Sequence record: PP355091.1
Length of the DNA: 64,000 nucleotides
Strand: one strand, 5' to 3'
From: Escherichia phage 235Ecol030PP
Both the position numbers and the translations under genes were made by a program. Of the stretch, positions 4,521-45,530 are shown piece after piece (position 1 is the first letter of the stretch; every line of letters starts with the position of its first letter). Below the pieces are notes generated by a model that was given only the letters and a program-made list of their open reading frames with translations, ran no database searches and had not been told where the DNA came from.

Positions 4521-4564
4521 TACCAAAAAAATTTATAAAGCAATATAGGAGCCGAAGCTCCTAT
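4521..4564 (-). terminator. Stem-loop (AUAGGAGC-UUCG-GCUCCUAU) plus U-tract; putative terminator
   Basis: ataggagccgaagctcctat at 4545-4564 with T-rich run downstream on minus strand. Confidence 0.45.
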
Positions 4565-21186: not shown

Positions 21187-21332
21187 TGATTCTTCTCCAA
21201 ATAAGTTTCGATAATTTTCTGGGCGAGATAAACCGCGTTATCTTCAGTTGCGTCTTCTAAGAAACTTTCAAAACACTCTGAAATTTCTTCTGTGTCAATC
21301 AATTTTTTTACTTCAATTGGTGTAATTTTCAT
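21183..21332 (-). CDS. Small acidic protein (49 aa; start at MKITPIEV)
   Basis: Track ORF 21183-21503 runs through promoter and terminator; first ATG downstream of promoter taken. Confidence 0.4.
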   Translation of the reverse strand: MKITPIEVKKLIDTEEISECFESFLEDATEDNAVYLAQKIIETYLEKNQ

Positions 21333-21399: not shown

Positions 21400-21423
21400 C
21401 ACTTTGTGAAAAAATTTTTGAAA

Positions 21424-21448
21424 TAAAAAAGGGAGCCCGAAGGCTCCC
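21424..21448 (-). terminator. Intrinsic terminator (GGGAGCC-UUCG-GGCUCCC plus U6)
   Basis: gggagcccgaaggctccc at 21431-21448 with plus-strand A-run 21425-21430 (U-run on minus RNA), directly after stop of ORF 21451-22464. Confidence 0.7.
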
Positions 21449-31971: not shown

Positions 31972-32550
31972 TTAGGAATTACGGGCTGCATTAGCAACGG
32001 CGTAAGCGTACTGGACATTAGCGTCTTTAAACGTACCTTTAGAGGTATCTATTTCTGCCTTAAAGCCGCCTTTAGCCATAGCATCGGCAAATTCTTTACG
32101 GAAAGCCATTGCATCAAGACCTTTCCATGATGATTTATGCTTGGCAAATTCAAGACCAGCGTAGTTGACAGCCTTAGCTAATTTATTATCAATAACCCAT
32201 TTACCGGCTTTAGGCACAAACTTCGGGCCTTTTTGTTTAGAGAACAGTTTTAAATTCCAGCGACGAAGGTCACTGTCGGCTTTAACAAAAGCTGCGTCTA
32301 AGTTACTAGCAACAACATCTTCAATATGAGCAAATTTAAGTCCGTCAACTTCAATATTTAGATCGTTACGCCAGCGAAGTCCTTCCCAAGCGAAGGCTTT
32401 AAAGTCGGAAGCCTTTGTAGCTAAGTACCGTTCAATAGGAGCTGTTTTAGGGTCAAAGCCGTTTCCCGATCGGTAGGTCCACTCATCTTTATTAATGCCT
32501 TTGGCCTTTACTATAGAAGCTTCGGCAATAAATTCTTGATAGGTTTTCAT
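31972..32550 (-). CDS. ipIII: Internal protein III-like head protein (capsid targeting sequence MKTYQEFIAEA)
   Basis: 192 aa; N-terminal MKTYQEFIAEA is the classic T4 internal-protein targeting/cleavage leader; early promoter upstream. Confidence 0.75.
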   Translation of the reverse strand: MKTYQEFIAEASIVKAKGINKDEWTYRSGNGFDPKTAPIERYLATKASDFKAFAWEGLRWRNDLNIEVDGLKFAHIEDVVASNLDAAFVKADSDLRRWNLKLFSKQKGPKFVPKAGKWVIDNKLAKAVNYAGLEFAKHKSSWKGLDAMAFRKEFADAMAKGGFKAEIDTSKGTFKDANVQYAYAVANAARNS

Positions 32551-32611: not shown

Positions 32612-32872
32612 TTAAGCTTTACCGCCAGAAATAATTCCGAAGTTGTTAAAATCATATCCAATATCGTCAACATCTACTTTAGGACTTGCTACAACATAAG
32701 CAATTTCACTACATTTTGCACAGGTGTTGATTTCTTTACCATCGCCACCTAAGAAAGAATACCCATTACGTTTTAATGAGCCAAAGTCTTCCGCATCATC
32801 AATGAAAGCTTTAACTTTAAATTTAGAACCTTTGGCATCTGCTTCAACGATAAATTCTTGATACATTTTCAT
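32612..32872 (-). CDS. Internal-protein-like gene (IPII position), CTS leader MKMYQEFIVEA
   Basis: 86 aa; leader matches IP consensus; rest unrelated to ipIII. Confidence 0.6.
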   Translation of the reverse strand: MKMYQEFIVEADAKGSKFKVKAFIDDAEDFGSLKRNGYSFLGGDGKEINTCAKCSEIAYVVASPKVDVDDIGYDFNNFGIISGGKA

Positions 32873-33041: not shown

Positions 33042-34282
<1,241 letters not shown>

Positions 34283-34786: not shown

Positions 34787-35130
34787 TCACTCACAAACTC
34801 TTTCATTGCTTCATTTTCAATATAAGAAATGTAGCTATTATATTCCTTTAATTGTATTTTGTAATCTTTTTTTCTTTGCCAATTTATTTTAAAATTATCA
34901 TAATGAAAATATAACATGGTACCAAAGAATGAAAATAATGAAATAATTTTAGTATAGTGAAGTTCACTCCAAACTTCTATTATATTTACTGTGCCGTCAA
35001 TGTTTAAAATAAGACAGTCAATTAACAATCCAAAAAGACTACCCGCAAGAGCTGCAGCCAACGCCACAGCAAAAATTAAAAATGACTCAGGAAGCGAATA
35101 TTTGGCTTTATTTAGTTTTGGCTTTTGCAT
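34768..35130 (-). CDS. Membrane protein, member of a tandem paralog family
   Basis: 120 aa; C-terminus KEFVSDCRKIR. Confidence 0.5.
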   Translation of the reverse strand: MQKPKLNKAKYSLPESFLIFAVALAAALAGSLFGLLIDCLILNIDGTVNIIEVWSELHYTKIISLFSFFGTMLYFHYDNFKINWQRKKDYKIQLKEYNSYISYIENEAMKEFVSDCRKIR

Positions 35131-35525: not shown

Positions 35526-36083
35526 ATTTTTCTAATAATAAATCGCTTTCAAAATTGGGATTTTCCACGAATTTATCAAAAAGATCATCAACAATAGTTA
35601 AGATATTCTTTTTACTAAGAATACGCTTATTTTCATGCTTCGTTTCAGAATCAACTATAAGAGTAAAGAAATATTTCTTGCCCTGAAATTTTACAGTAGT
35701 ATCAATATAGAATAAATTTGACTTTTGTAAATTACGTTTAAACCATGCGTCGCTTAAACTATAAACGCCAAGATAATCATAATCGTCGTTTAAATAACAG
35801 ACCGTCCATTCAGGAGAAACAAAATCAGTAAATTCAACGTCAAAATCGCATATGTTAATAAATGAATTGATTCAATACTGTTAATAAGTATTCCAGGACG
35901 TATTAAAGACTTTTTACCTCTAGAAAATCTTCCAGAAAGACTTTCATCAGTTTCATATGAAGAACCCCAATAATAATTACGTCCTTCTGCCATACGTTTA
36001 AGAGCATTTAATAATTGGTCTGGAACATCAACCTGTCTTTGAAACTCTTCAAACATTGAATTGAAATCACTTTGCATTTTCAT
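35473..36083 (-). pseudogene. Frameshifted gene: 5' ORF (35790-36083) continues in the +1 frame to 35473; C-terminus KFVKECREYVK resembles the downstream paralog family
   Basis: 97-aa track ORF ends in implausible tail; adjacent frame open for about 118 codons without any ATG/GTG/TTG start; frame change lies between 35790 and 35878. Confidence 0.45.
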
Positions 36084-37503: not shown

Positions 37504-37633
37504 AGTTTTGTGAAAAATTTTTTAAAAAGTTTTGGGGAATTCTAGGGCAAGGAGGGGAAATTAAAGGATAGGATAATATATTATAAAGGGTAGAAACTAA
37601 ATGATGCCTAGAGAGGCCTGGAAAGGCCTAGAT

Positions 37634-37663
37634 ACCAAAAAGCCCCAACCTTTTGGTCGGGAC
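37634..37663 (-). terminator. Intrinsic terminator (GUCCCGACC-AAAA-GGUUGGGGC plus U5)
   Basis: Hairpin from plus 37642-37663 with U-run from 37634-37641; 9 nt after stop at 37672. Confidence 0.65.
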
Positions 37664-37671
37664 TAAGAATA

Positions 37672-38144
37672 TTATTTGATTTGTTTAGCAGACCAAATGC
37701 GGTCTTTAATAATTTTTTGGATGTCTTCAACATACTCAAGAGAATGAGCATGTGGGTTATCTTTAAAGCTATGAGCACGAGCTAGCTTTTGGCCTTCAGT
37801 TTTGATTACTAAAAGCTCTTTAAGGATAGCTTCATATTTGGAGATAATTCCTTTAACGATATTTTTTCTTGTGCGACTTTAGGATCTGCTTTAGGAGCAG
37901 GTTTACCCGAAGCCTTTGCAAAAGCAGCGCCAGTAGCAACTAAACTTTTCCAGGCCATACTAACTGCATTTCCCGTAAATCCTTCCGCTTTCATGTCGCG
38001 TGCGAACTGGAATCGTGATTCATCAGAAGCATCTTTGTAAGAATATTTACCCGCTGCAATGGCTGCTTTTGCGACAGCTTGAATTTCGGTGCTAGATGCT
38101 TCATTTAACACCGCTTCATTTAAAAATTGAGTATATGATTTCAT
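37672..38144 (-). CDS. Internal-protein-like gene (CTS leader MKSYTQFLNEA), interrupted by a frameshift at an A6 run (37862-37867)
   Basis: Track ORF 37809-38144 (111 aa); one extra A in the A6 run joins it to a 65-codon ORF ending at 37672; late promoter immediately upstream. Confidence 0.5.
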
Positions 38145-38184
38145 CTTATTTCCTGTTTTAATTCGTGGTTTTAATATACTACTA

Positions 38185-38192
38185 TATTTATA
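38185..38192 (-). promoter_or_regulatory. T4 late promoter (TATAAATA) upstream of IP-like gene
   Basis: Minus-strand TATAAATA at 38185-38192, about 40 nt upstream of ATG at 38144. Confidence 0.5.
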
Positions 38193-38221
38193 CCAAAAAG
38201 CCCCAACCTTTCGGTCGGGGC
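38193..38221 (-). terminator. Intrinsic terminator (GCCCCGACC-GAAA-GGUUGGGGC plus U5)
   Basis: Near-identical to hairpin at 37634-37663; closes the stable-RNA region. Confidence 0.65.
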
Positions 38222-38529
38222 TAAGCCTTGCGGCAACCTTGTCGGGGTTCCACCTGCTAAGGCAAGTGTTTGTACGAAACGCCGGGATTCGAACCCGGTT
38301 ATTAAGCAGTTGACGCTACTCAATATTTTTAAAAGGCCATATCTCGACCATATCCGAACGTTCCGTCAAAAACGCTACTCGGTTTACGGCAAAGATATTT
38401 CCTCGAATCGATAATTCGGTGCGCCGTTTCTGCTGTGATAGTAAAGAGCCAGAACACAGTAAAACTGTGGGAGGAAACTATACTCCAGGGAACATCAGTC
38501 CGACGACTTACCGGTAGCGACCCGGTTTC
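38222..38529 (-). ncRNA. Putative phage stable RNA region (T4 RNA C / RNA D-like, tRNA-like elements); boundaries approximate
   Basis: No ORF; contains tRNA-like T-arm CCGGG-UUCGAAU-CCCGG at 38281-38298; follows tRNA-Arg locus and ends at terminator, as for T4 species 1/2 RNAs. Confidence 0.4.
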
Positions 38530-38880
38530 TTAGTATTCTTTTAAAGCATCAACCTGTTCACGACGTTTACGCCATAAATCAATTACTTCATACGCAGATT
38601 CAGCATTTCGAATTGGACGGCATTTATATAAAGACTTGTGATTTTGATATTGTGTAGATAACGGAATTTTATCTAAAAGGTCTTTACGTTCAAAATATTC
38701 GTAACCATCTAAACCAAATGAACGATTTTTGAGAAATTGCCAATGACCATATTCGTTTTCGACATAAACATAATCTGCATGCTGATAAAGCAAATTAATT
38801 ACACGTTCAGAAATAACAGTATCATTATGATTAAAATAGAATGTTAAATCATGAACTACTAAATAAACATTACCTTTCAT
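38530..38880 (-). CDS. Hypothetical protein
   Basis: 116-aa ORF directly downstream of tRNA-Arg. Confidence 0.45.
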   Translation of the reverse strand: MKGNVYLVVHDLTFYFNHNDTVISERVINLLYQHADYVYVENEYGHWQFLKNRSFGLDGYEYFERKDLLDKIPLSTQYQNHKSLYKCRPIRNAESAYEVIDLWRKRREQVDALKEY

Positions 38881-45078: not shown

Positions 45079-45530
45079 TATGCCCCCTTAAAGCCAAGAG
45101 CTCGTAATCCATCTTCTGTTAGAATTCTAAATTTTATTCCACGCTTTTCAGCTAAAGCTTGCGCTGCTTTCCATTTGTCGGTATTAACAGAATATGTATA
45201 AATTTCATTCATAAATCTTTTCTTCGCTGCGGTTGTTAGATGTGCTGGTTTAACCGGTGGTTGTGTTTCTTTTTTAGGTTTTATTTCAATAAAAAATTCT
45301 TGTCCAGAAGAATCTTTCATCCAAATATCCATGAAGTATCTACGTTTTTTCCCTTCTGCATTACAAAAATAAGGAATTACTGCTGTTTCACTACCCCATG
45401 CAATAATTTCTGGATTTTTATCTAACCATTCAAAAAAGAATTTTTCCCAATTTGATCTATACGTAATTTTTTTAGGGTCACCTCTATACTTTGATATATT
45501 TTTAGGAACCCATTTTCCAGAATATGCCAT
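45078..45530 (-). CDS. 4: Head completion protein gp4
   Basis: 150 aa; late promoter upstream on minus strand. Confidence 0.85.

What the first reader, a model, noticed from the sequence alone, without database searches (positions are those of the whole stretch)
37672..38144. IP-like gene interrupted at an A6 homopolymer; one extra A restores a continuous ORF of about 155 codons
ORF 37809-38144 has the leader MKSYTQFLNEA and ends 17 codons after an A6 run (37862-37867). With A7 the frame continues through ...KNIVKGIISKYEAILKELLVIKTEGQKLARAHSF... to a stop at 37672, which sits 9 nt before a strong terminator. This could be a sequencing error, an inactivating mutation, or a slippage-prone tract giving two products. 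A late promoter (38185-38192) lies directly upstream.
Basis: seen in the sequence. Interest (0 to 1): 0.5.

Follow-up and report, generated by a model that had tools for sequence, protein, structure and literature searches.

The report
Frameshifted phage internal-protein gene at poly-A hotspot
A small, dispensable T4-like phage gene that probably encodes a protein packed into the phage head is cut short here by the loss of one A from a run of seven. That run varies from A6 to A9 among related phages, so it is a natural slippage hotspot, and the loss is probably not a sequencing error.

Summary
On the minus strand, ORF 38144..37809 (111 aa) carries an A6 run (37862-37867). One extra A gives a 157-codon ORF ending at 37672. 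Close relatives (KMB40, KMB23, UFV09) have exactly that A7 and the intact 157-aa gene.

The window is a Tequatrovirus. The gene sits in a 558-bp cassette (late-promoter motif, gene, terminator) flanked by 36-nt terminator repeats; T4 and T2 lack it. The protein has a T4-type capsid-targeting leader (MKSYTQFLNE: Y4, F7, L8, E10), so it is probably an injected internal protein. Its function is unknown.

The run is polymorphic in public genomes. A7 is the norm, but 14 phages (17 of 397 records) have A6, A8 or A9, on many sequence backgrounds and from many laboratories. Two other A7 runs in the same genomes almost never vary (gene 4: 0/502; e.3: 1/493, +1 only). All 15 out-of-frame alleles examined still carry an undamaged downstream reading frame.

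Best reading: a genuine, recent and probably reversible replication-slippage mutation, of the kind recently called a phage contingency locus. I found no support for programmed frameshifting. A sequencing error in this particular window cannot be excluded without reads.

The parts
37632..38225 (-). Whole accessory cassette. It comprises the upstream terminator repeat, late-promoter motif, Shine-Dalgarno, the gene, and the downstream terminator repeat. The repeat-to-repeat spacing is 558 bp. T4 and T2 lack it.
   Evidence: A 36-nt direct repeat lies at 37632-37667 and 38190-38225, 94% identical. T4 has a single hybrid terminator at this point and no gene. T2 also lacks the gene. The RB51 record notes 'flanked by 34 bp imperfect direct repeat'.
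38199..38222 (-). Upstream intrinsic terminator at the end of the rnaC-like region. It is the left copy of the repeat.
   Evidence: Terminator scan: 10-bp stem, 7 GC pairs, T-tail. It aligns with the T4 sequence immediately downstream of rnaC.
38185..38192 (-). T4-type late promoter motif TATAAATA, 48 nt upstream of the ATG.
   Evidence: Sequence and distance to the ATG. Annotated as 'predicted late promoter' at the same place in fPS-65. The motif alone is not above chance in the window.
38151..38154 (-). Shine-Dalgarno AGGA, 6 nt before the ATG.
   Evidence: Read directly from the sequence.
38115..38144 (-). Capsid-targeting-sequence-like leader MKSYTQFLNE (codons 1-10), with an L-N-E gp21-type cleavage motif. 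A second LNE follows at codons 13-15.
   Evidence: Translation and motif positions. The key CTS residues 4, 7, 8 and 10 and the L/I-X-E motif are taken from PMC9026906. The leader is kept across the whole family. The AF2 model shows it as disordered.
37809..38144 (-). The ORF as it stands: 111 aa. It comprises the leader, the N-terminal helical domain, a Lys/Pro/Ala linker and 17 out-of-frame residues.
   Evidence: An identical 111-aa protein is on record as BBI58263.1 (SfPhi01) and WZX06386.1.
37862..37867 (-). A6 homopolymer. It is A7 in the intact allele and is the indel hotspot.
   Evidence: Run lengths A6, A7, A8 and A9 were verified in 20 fetched loci.
37672..37861 (-). C-terminal domain coding remnant: 62 sense codons plus the stop, in the -1 frame, for a predicted helical hairpin. 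It is not translated in this allele.
   Evidence: Frame-2 translation. It is identical to the KMB40 C-terminus. The AF2 model of the intact orthologue shows helices 88-124 and 131-154.
37641..37664 (-). Downstream intrinsic terminator. It is the right copy of the repeat.
   Evidence: Terminator scan: 10-bp stem, 6 GC pairs, T-tail.

Best explanation
The gene is a dispensable late gene of a T4-like phage. It most likely encodes an internal head protein that is targeted into the prohead by a 10-residue leader, trimmed by the gp21 protease and injected with the DNA. By analogy with T4 Ip1-3 it may act against a host defence.

The normal allele has an A7 run (GAA AAA AAT, codons 93-95) at the junction between a conserved N-terminal helical domain with its linker and a C-terminal helical hairpin. 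In this window the run has lost one A, most likely by DNA-polymerase slippage during replication. Translation therefore leaves the frame after Lys94 and stops 17 codons later. The 111-aa product keeps the leader and the N-domain but lacks the C-terminal hairpin.

The tract is a natural hotspot. Alleles A6, A8 and A9 recur on many backgrounds, they are recent, and they probably revert. This matches what a 2025 preprint calls a phage contingency locus.

- **Shown:** the frameshift, the intact orthologues, the allele spectrum, the invariant control runs, the undecayed downstream frame, and the cassette structure.
- **Inferred:** packaging and injection, replication slippage as the cause, reversibility, and any anti-defence function.
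For: **The frameshift**
- A7 and an intact 157-aa ORF are found in the closest relatives, and the gene alignment differs by this single A. The window's haplotype is otherwise identical to KMB40 and UFV09.

**The hotspot**
- 17 of 397 matching records (14 distinct phages) are out of frame at this run.
  - A6: SfPhi01, F26.
  - A8: EC128, teqhal, T4_ev240, PsgM02F, ph0021, PYps55T, SF2-1, AUBRB02, G28, ECO07P3.
  - A9: ECO4, fPS-65.
- These alleles lie on at least 9 distinct gene haplotypes and come from several countries.
- On teqhal's exact 80-mer, about 20 records are A7.
- Further A6-type alleles on other backgrounds appear in protein databases: P0014, P0018, P0021, P0023, P0038.
- The A8 products are seen on 15, 9 and 5 contigs.
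- SfPhi01's A6 is reproduced in an independent assembly of its reads, DRR175055.

**Not generic sequencing error**
- The A7 run in essential gene 4 shows 0 of 502 records with A6 or A8.
- The A7 run in e.3 shows 1 of 493 with A8.
- Fisher tests give p = 4e-6 and p = 1.7e-3.

**Recent or reversible**
- All 15 out-of-frame alleles give an intact 157-aa ORF when reset to A7, with no secondary stops or indels.
- In the C-part, 23 of 30 variable sites fall at third codon positions of the A7 frame.

**Dispensable**
- T4 and T2 lack the whole cassette.

**Internal-protein-like**
- The leader has Y4, F7, L8 and E10, with an LNE motif (PMC9026906).
- The leader is kept in all 13 family representatives.
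- A late-promoter motif is present, and the predicted pI is 9.5.

**Background literature**
- A runs of 6 or more in T2, T4 and T6 gain and lose single bases at about 3e-4 per read and revert 1,000-10,000 times faster than SNPs (bioRxiv 10.1101/2025.10.21.683753).
- T4 Ip1-3 each inhibit a distinct GmrSD restriction enzyme (PMC12373910).
Against: - No reads are available for this window, so an assembly error at the run cannot be excluded.
- The window also carries a private 2-nt frameshift in e.5, found in none of 266 records. That is either a second real lesion or a hint of imperfect assembly.
- Some A8 alleles could be identical by descent and spread by recombination rather than recurrent.
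- The run is not conserved as such. RB51 and Phaginator have GAG AAA AAT, and one clade has GAA AAG AAT. Nothing therefore shows that selection maintains the tract.
- Packaging, cleavage, injection and function have not been tested. No Pfam, PDB or BFVD match gives a function.
- The control searches would miss a variant that also carried a SNP within the 78-80-mer. The -1 control for e.3 failed.
Confidence: 0.75

Rival explanations
1. The real phage has A7 and an intact gene, and the A6 in this record is a homopolymer sequencing or assembly error.
For: - The window differs from KMB40 and UFV09 in the gene only by this base, as an error would.
- Homopolymers are the classic site of indel errors.
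- The window also has a private 2-nt frameshift in e.5, absent from 266 other records.
Against: - Error rates at comparable A7 runs in the same set of public genomes are about 0-0.2% (0/502 in gene 4; 1/493 in e.3). Real variation at this run is about 4%. On those base rates a variant seen here is roughly ten times more likely to be real than to be an error.
- Over 43.6 kb aligned to Phaginator, no essential gene carries an isolated frameshifting indel.
- The same A6 allele exists in SfPhi01, confirmed by an independent assembly of its reads, and in F26.
Confidence: 0.13
2. The run is a programmed recoding site. Ribosomal -1 frameshifting or RNA-polymerase slippage on the A run regularly yields both the short product and the full-length product from one allele.
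For: - In the A6 allele, a -1 slip of tRNA-Lys on GAA AAA A would recreate exactly the full-length protein (derived).
- In the A7 allele, A AAA AAT is a formal X XXY YYZ heptamer in frame, and a -1 shift there would stop after two codons.
- E. coli tRNA-Lys is known to be shift-prone on A runs (my own knowledge of dnaX).
Against: - The normal state in hundreds of genomes is one continuous ORF, not two overlapping frames.
- The A6 allele has no in-frame slippery heptamer.
- There is no upstream Shine-Dalgarno-like stimulator and no significant downstream structure (z = -1.7; 12 of 200 shuffles fold as well).
- The run is interrupted by synonymous changes in RB51, Phaginator and one metagenomic clade.
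- Known transcriptional-slippage sites use runs of about 8-9 or more (my own knowledge).
Confidence: 0.05
3. The truncated gene is a stable, functional short isoform. The N-terminal domain alone is the working module, and phages that carry A6, A8 or A9 have settled on it.
For: - All out-of-frame alleles keep the leader, the whole N-domain and the linker.
- Distant relatives pair the same N-domain with an unrelated C-terminal domain (P0009, P0010).
- A8 alleles are seen on 29 contigs.
Against: - The untranslated C-part shows no decay in any of 15 alleles, and its polymorphism is codon-structured. It was therefore translated until very recently.
- Out-of-frame alleles are the minority on each local haplotype.
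Confidence: 0.07

Closest known systems
Phage contingency loci: homopolymer SSRs of 6 bases or more in T2, T4 and T6 (Gomez, Barrick & Waters, bioRxiv 10.1101/2025.10.21.683753)
   Same: Both are a mono-A tract inside an ORF of a T-even-type phage that gains or loses single bases. The affected gene is non-essential and plausibly linked to host defence. Out-of-frame alleles keep an intact downstream frame, as expected for reversible switching.
   Different: This gene is absent from T2, T4 and T6, so it was not examined in that work. The evidence here is the allele spectrum among natural isolates, not measured switching rates or a selectable phenotype. Nothing shows that the tract is maintained by selection; it is broken by synonymous changes in some lineages.
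T4 internal proteins IPI, IPII and IPIII, with their capsid-targeting sequence (PMC9026906, PMC3012670, PMC12373910)
   Same: Shared features are a 10-residue N-terminal leader with Y4, F7, L/I8 and E10, an L/I-X-E gp21 motif, a late-promoter motif, a small basic protein, dispensability, and patchy distribution among T-even phages.
   Different: There is no sequence or fold similarity in the mature part: no IPI_T4 Pfam hit, and the T2 ipIV comparison found nothing beyond the leader. The gene lies between the rnaC-like region and e.8, not at the ipI or ipII/ipIII loci. Packaging, cleavage, injection and target are untested.
Classical T4 frameshift hotspots at A runs (rII and lysozyme genes; Streisinger slipped-strand model; my own knowledge, and the rIIA A6 example in the 2025 preprint)
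   Same: The mechanism is the same: +/-1 at a run of A by slipped-strand mispairing, with rates rising with run length.
   Different: Those hotspots were defined by laboratory mutant selection. Here the polymorphism is seen standing in natural and collection isolates.
dnaX-type programmed -1 frameshifting and programmed transcriptional slippage
   Same: Both involve an A-rich slippery sequence decoded by tRNA-Lys, with a short product ending soon after the shift.
   Different: The defining stimulators, and conservation of the two-frame arrangement, are absent here. The shift is encoded in the DNA, not made during expression.
Hypermutable poly-G tracts in Campylobacter phage genes
   Same: Both are homopolymer length variation switching a phage gene on and off within populations.
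   Different: Those are poly-G tracts in receptor-binding genes of a different phage group. Here it is poly-A in a putative injected protein.

Membership tests
T4-type internal (CTS-bearing, injected) proteins | N-terminal capsid-targeting sequence of about 10 residues, with targeting residues at positions 4 and 7 and processing residues at 8 and 10 | tested here: met
   MKSYTQFLNE compared with IPIII MKTYQEFIAE: Y4, F7, L8 (I in IPIII) and E10 are all present (definition from PMC9026906). The leader is kept in all family representatives.
T4-type internal (CTS-bearing, injected) proteins | gp21 cleavage motif L/I-X-E at the end of the leader | tested here: met
   LNE at residues 8-10, and again at 13-15. 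This is the motif only; cleavage itself has not been shown.
T4-type internal (CTS-bearing, injected) proteins | Late expression together with the head genes | tested here: inconclusive
   TATAAATA lies 48 nt upstream of the ATG, directly after a terminator, and is annotated as a late promoter in fPS-65. The motif count in the window is not above chance.
T4-type internal (CTS-bearing, injected) proteins | Physical presence in the mature head and injection into the host | not testable with these tools
   This needs virion proteomics. No paper mentioning this ORF was found.
T4-type internal (CTS-bearing, injected) proteins | Homology of the mature part to IPI, IPII, IPIII or T2 ipIV | tested here: not met
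   No Pfam family was matched. BLASTP against T2 ipIV found nothing beyond the leader. Known Ips also share only the leader (PMC12373910), so this does not exclude membership of the functional class.
Phage contingency locus (Gomez et al. 2025) | Simple sequence repeat of 6 bases or more inside an ORF | tested here: met
   A6 in the window and A7 in the intact allele.
Phage contingency locus (Gomez et al. 2025) | Elevated rate of +/-1 indels at the repeat relative to other sites | tested here: inconclusive
   This is supported indirectly. Out-of-frame alleles occur in 17 of 397 records on at least 9 haplotypes, against 0/502 and 1/493 at two control A7 runs. The excess could reflect weaker selection rather than a higher mutation rate, and no rate was measured.
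Phage contingency locus (Gomez et al. 2025) | Reversibility (switching back restores the gene) | tested here: inconclusive
   All 15 out-of-frame alleles keep an intact, codon-structured downstream frame. SfPhi01 (A6) and ECO4 (A9) share one haplotype. This is compatible with reversal, but reversal was not observed.
Phage contingency locus (Gomez et al. 2025) | A fitness trade-off between the ON and OFF states | not testable with these tools
   This needs isogenic A6, A7 and A8 phages tested on defence-carrying hosts.
Programmed -1 ribosomal frameshift (dnaX type) | In-frame slippery heptamer X XXY YYZ | tested here: not met
   The zero-frame codons in the window are GAA AAA ATA, which form no X XXY YYZ. 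Only the A7 allele has A AAA AAT.
Programmed -1 ribosomal frameshift (dnaX type) | Stimulatory element (upstream SD-like sequence or downstream stem-loop) and conservation of the two-frame layout | tested here: not met
   The fold of the surrounding 121 nt is not significant and places no hairpin just after the run. Orthologues have a single ORF.
Programmed transcriptional slippage | A long A/T run (about 8-9 or more) conserved among relatives with the gene in two frames | tested here: not met
   The run is 6 here and 7 in the norm, and it is interrupted in RB51, Phaginator and the P0004 clade. The length threshold comes from my own knowledge.

The most novel reading that the evidence does not exclude
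The A7 tract is a true bet-hedging switch in a gene for an injected protein. Every burst would contain a fraction of phages that deliver only the N-terminal domain (A6, A8 or A9) instead of the two-domain protein. This would pay off when a host defence senses, or is not inhibited by, the C-terminal hairpin. Selection would then keep the tract at the domain boundary even though runs of 7 or more are otherwise strongly purged from the genome (4 observed against 34-60 expected). That would make it the first contingency locus seen operating in natural populations on a T-even internal protein.
Probability: 0.2. Interest if true: 0.65.

Novelty: new member of a known kind. Interest (0 to 1): 0.4.

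Why it matters
Internal proteins of T-even phages are injected anti-defence factors. All three T4 Ips have now been shown to block distinct GmrSD restriction enzymes. Many uncharacterised leader-bearing genes remain, and this is one of them: a small family restricted to T4-like phages.

The gene carries a homopolymer that varies from A6 to A9 among isolates, while comparable runs in other genes stay fixed. That gives population-level support, from public genomes alone, for the recent claim that phages use homopolymer tracts as contingency loci. It also points to a concrete, easily engineered locus (isogenic A6, A7, A8 and GAG-stabilised alleles) on which to test the claim.

For annotation, the 93-112-aa 'hypothetical proteins' at this position in several deposited genomes are frameshift alleles of one 157-aa gene.

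Tried and rejected
- **Exact-pattern scans of IMG/VR** for the A6 and the A7 31/32-mers both found nothing, so they were uninformative.
- **Function searches** gave nothing. Pfam had no family. PHROGs matched only phrog_2280, of unknown function. Foldseek against PDB and BFVD returned only self-family hits. A profile search of 1.8 billion representatives found 13 proteins, all from the same small family.
- **T2 'ipIV'** has the same 474-nt length, but apart from the leader it is unrelated.
- **Literature:** no paper mentions RB32ORF132c. Repoila et al. 1994, which catalogues T-even Ip genes, is not held. Whether this gene is one of their Ips is therefore untested.
- **The -1 control query for the e.3 run** returned no match at all, probably because of low-complexity masking.
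- **A home-made scan for other homopolymer-linked frame breaks** mostly picked up ordinary gene junctions and was dropped. I replaced it with an alignment against phage Phaginator.
The 96%-identical P0001 was used instead.
- **Conservation of the run as evidence of selection** was considered and rejected. Synonymous changes break the run in several lineages.

Full report
**What the window is.** It carries eight tRNA genes in the T4 order (Gln, Leu, Gly, Pro, Ser, Thr, Ile read as 'Met-CAT', Arg). A 221-aa GIY-YIG ORF sits between the last two, as segB does in T4. Megablast of 18 kb around the finding hits hundreds of Tequatrovirus genomes at 94-96% identity, and none is identical. The source is therefore a T4-like coliphage that is not itself in the phage collection. 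All genes near the finding are on the minus strand.

**The observation.** On the minus strand an ORF runs from ATG 38144 to TAG 37809 (111 aa, MKSYTQFLNEA...). The A6 run is at 37862-37867, in the codon context CAA GAA AAA ATA. Seventeen codons later the frame stops.

Adding one A gives a 474-nt ORF of 157 codons that ends at TAA 37674-37672. A 10-bp-stem terminator follows at 37664-37641, and an almost identical one lies upstream at 38222-38199. TATAAATA is at 38192-38185, 48 nt before the ATG.

**Orthologues settle the frame.**
- The 651-bp region matches 564 phage records. The best matches are 652 bp long.
- Alignment with KMB40, KMB23 and UFV09 shows a single difference inside the gene: they have A7.
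- Those records, and RB51 (gene 'RB32ORF132c'), annotate a 474-nt CDS.

The intact 157-aa gene is therefore the norm, and the window carries a -1 allele.

**What the gene is.** T4 has no gene here. Its rnaC terminator runs straight into the region upstream of e.8, and T2 is the same. In the window, a 558-bp unit (promoter motif, gene, terminator) lies between two 36-nt direct repeats that are the terminator itself, at 37632-37667 and 38190-38225, 94% identical. The RB51 record notes the same repeat. The gene is therefore an accessory cassette and is dispensable for a T-even phage.

The evidence that it is an internal protein is as follows.
- **Leader residues:** the leader MKSYTQFLNE has the four residues that define the IPIII capsid-targeting sequence: 4 and 7 for targeting, 8 and 10 for processing.
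- **Cleavage motif:** it also has the gp21 motif L/I-X-E (PMC9026906).
- **Other leader-bearing ORFs:** three other ORFs in the window carry such leaders, including the IPIII-like one.
- **Charge:** the protein is basic, with pI 9.5.
- **Family size:** a profile search of 1.8 billion representative proteins finds only 13 relatives. Those of full length carry a similar leader.
- **Structure:** an AlphaFold model of the 96%-identical P0001 (mean pLDDT 75) shows four parts. These are a disordered leader, a three-helix N-domain (residues 18-71, pLDDT 82-91), a low-confidence Lys/Pro/Ala linker (76-87), and a C-terminal helical hairpin (88-124, 131-154).
- **Domain swap in distant relatives:** relatives in Yersinia and Klebsiella phages keep the N-domain but have a different C-terminal domain.

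Nothing gives a function: there is no Pfam, PDB or BFVD match, and PHROGs places it in phrog_2280, of unknown function. T4 Ip1, Ip2 and Ip3 each inhibit a distinct GmrSD restriction enzyme and share only the leader (PMC12373910). By analogy only, an injected anti-defence role is the most likely one.

The A run sits at codons 93-95, the start of the C-terminal hairpin. The window's product therefore keeps the leader, N-domain and linker, and loses the hairpin.

**The run is a polymorphic hotspot.** A tblastn query made of the last 50 residues of the truncated product ranks out-of-frame alleles first. I fetched and measured these loci.

| Run length | Phages | Product |
|---|---|---|
| A6 | SfPhi01, vB_Eco_F26, and the window | 111 aa |
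| A7 | the majority, e.g. KMB40, KMB23, UFV09 | 157 aa (intact) |
| A8 | EC128, teqhal, T4_ev240, PsgM02F, ph0021, PYps55T, SF2-1, AUBRB02, G28, ECO07P3 | 97 aa, ending ...QEKKYC |
| A9 | ECO4, fPS-65 | 112 aa, same tail frame as A6 |

That is 17 of 397 matching records, or 14 distinct phages, from Denmark, Germany, Brazil, China and elsewhere.
- The out-of-frame alleles sit on at least nine different gene haplotypes.
- The window's haplotype is otherwise identical to the A7 phages KMB40 and UFV09.
- SfPhi01 (A6) and ECO4 (A9) share one haplotype and differ only in the run.
- On teqhal's exact 80-mer, two records are A8 and about twenty are A7.
- Protein databases add more A6-type alleles on other backgrounds (P0014, P0018, P0021, P0023, P0038).
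- The A8 products appear on 29 contigs from NCBI, ENA, Logan and JGI.
- An independent Logan assembly of SfPhi01's reads (DRR175055) also gives A6.

**Is this just homopolymer sequencing error?** Errors do not depend on what a gene does, so I tested other A7 runs in the same genomes.
- **Gene 4:** the window has only four A/T runs of 7 or more. One lies in gene 4, the essential head completion protein (45467-45473). Queries with that run changed to A6 or to A8 each matched 502 records, and none at 99% or better, so no record carries either variant on the common flanks.
- **e.3:** for the A7 run in e.3 (34867-34873), the A8 query matched 493 records and one carried A8. That record is a 116-kb partial genome. 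The A6 query failed.
- **Statistics:** Fisher tests against the finding's locus give p = 4e-6 and p = 1.7e-3.
- **Assembly quality:** aligning the window to Phaginator over 43.6 kb shows no isolated frameshifting indel in any essential gene.

Generic error rates at A7 runs are thus at most a few per thousand, while variation at this run is about 4%. A variant seen here is about ten times more likely to be real than to be an error. Without reads, the question stays open for this one record.

One caution: the window also has a private 2-nt 'AT' insertion that truncates e.5 to 97 aa instead of 202 aa. None of 266 records has it.

**Old pseudogenes or recent, reversible changes?** Resetting the run to A7 in all 15 out-of-frame alleles gives an intact 157-aa ORF every time, with no secondary stop or indel. 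Among those alleles the now-untranslated C-part has 30 variable sites. Of these, 23 lie at third positions of the A7 frame, and the few amino-acid variants also occur in in-frame alleles. The diversity was therefore laid down while the region was being translated. The frameshifts are recent, or they switch back, or both.

**Is the tract maintained by selection?** This is not shown. The run is kept in several diverged clades (GRNsp7-like, two metagenomic clades). It is broken by synonymous changes in RB51 and Phaginator (GAG AAA AAT) and in one clade (GAA AAG AAT). On the other hand, A/T runs of 7 or more are strongly depleted in the window: 4 observed against 34 expected from base composition, or 60 from a first-order model. 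A long-lived A7 is therefore unusual.

**Programmed recoding.**
- In the A6 allele, a -1 slip of tRNA-Lys would restore the full protein, but the zero-frame codons GAA AAA ATA are not an X XXY YYZ heptamer.
- No Shine-Dalgarno-like element lies upstream.
- The fold of the surrounding 121 nt is unremarkable (z = -1.7) and has no hairpin just after the run.
- Relatives encode one ORF, not two frames.

I rate programmed frameshifting or transcriptional slippage as unlikely. Trace amounts of full-length product by spontaneous slippage are possible but have not been tested.

**Relation to what is known.** Frameshift hotspots at A runs in T4 are classical. A 2025 preprint (10.1101/2025.10.21.683753) recasts homopolymers of 6 or more in T2, T4 and T6 as contingency loci. 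It measured +/-1 variants at about 3e-4 per read and reversion 1,000-10,000 times faster than for point mutants, with trade-offs for agt and rIIA. The present gene is absent from those three phages and from their tables.

What is added here is a further locus, in a putative injected protein, whose switching is visible as standing variation among natural isolates. I file it as a new member of a known kind. The claim that it is an adaptive switch remains a hypothesis.

**Verdict.** The finding is real and correctly read. The most likely explanation (about 0.75) is a genuine, recent loss of one A at a slippage-prone A7 tract in a dispensable, leader-bearing late gene. It gives a truncated product that probably can still be packaged. 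Sequencing error stands at about 0.13, a stable short isoform at about 0.07, and programmed recoding at about 0.05.

Noticed in passing
window 35790-36083 (minus); insertion near 35850: Gene e.5 is also frameshifted. A 2-nt 'AT' insertion (CATATG where relatives have CATG) leaves a 97-aa ORF instead of the 202-aa protein of Phaginator and T4. None of the 266 matching phage records has this insertion.
   Followed up: partly
window 37632-37667 and 38190-38225: 36-nt direct repeats, which are the intrinsic terminator itself and are 94% identical, bracket a 558-bp gene cassette. T4 and T2 have one terminator copy and no gene, which suggests gain or loss by recombination between terminator copies.
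   Followed up: yes
window 33042-33323, 32612-32872, 31972-32550 (all minus): Three more ORFs carry capsid-targeting-type leaders: [10 protein letters not shown]..., MKMYQEFIVE... and MKTYQEFIAE... (the last is IPIII-like, 192 aa). The first shares the extended motif L-x-E-x-(V/I)-LNEA with the gene of the finding. None has a Pfam match.
   Followed up: partly
whole window: A/T homopolymers of 7 or more are strongly depleted: 4 observed against 34 expected (independent bases) or 60 (first-order Markov model). None is longer than 7. The four are at 4525-4531 (probably intergenic), 21303-21309, 34867-34873 (e.3) and 45467-45473 (gene 4).
   Followed up: partly
L006 (SfPhi01) and L009 (ECO4), gene region: SfPhi01 (A6) and ECO4 (A9) have otherwise identical gene sequences. 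They differ by three A's, which puts both in the same out-of-frame tail frame. This could be one 3-nt step within the OFF state, or two independent changes from an A7 parent.
   Followed up: no
window 38226-38530 (minus): The region between the cassette and the 116-aa ORF aligns with T4 rnaC and rnaD (species 1 and 2 RNAs) and contains a tRNA-like T-arm sequence. Rfam reports only the eight tRNAs at gathering threshold, so these small RNAs have no matching family model.
   Followed up: partly
window 38530-38880 (minus): A 116-aa ORF lies between tRNA-Arg and the rnaD-like region. T4 and SfPhi01 lack it. T2, RB51 (noted there as 'similar to RB69ORF150c') and KMB40 have it. It has no Pfam match.
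   Followed up: no
window 21409-21431: Relative to Phaginator, the window has two compensating single-base indels 16 nt apart, both at A runs (A6 against A5, and A6 against A7). They lie near the annotated start of a Phaginator CDS. This could be another variable homopolymer pair, or an over-called N-terminus.
   Followed up: no
L033 (ECO07P3) and hit H193 (ECO07P2): Two phages isolated on the same Escherichia fergusonii host in one study differ at the tract: ECO07P3 is A8, and ECO07P2 appears to be A7 from its 79-nt match span. This is a possible natural ON/OFF pair.
   Followed up: no
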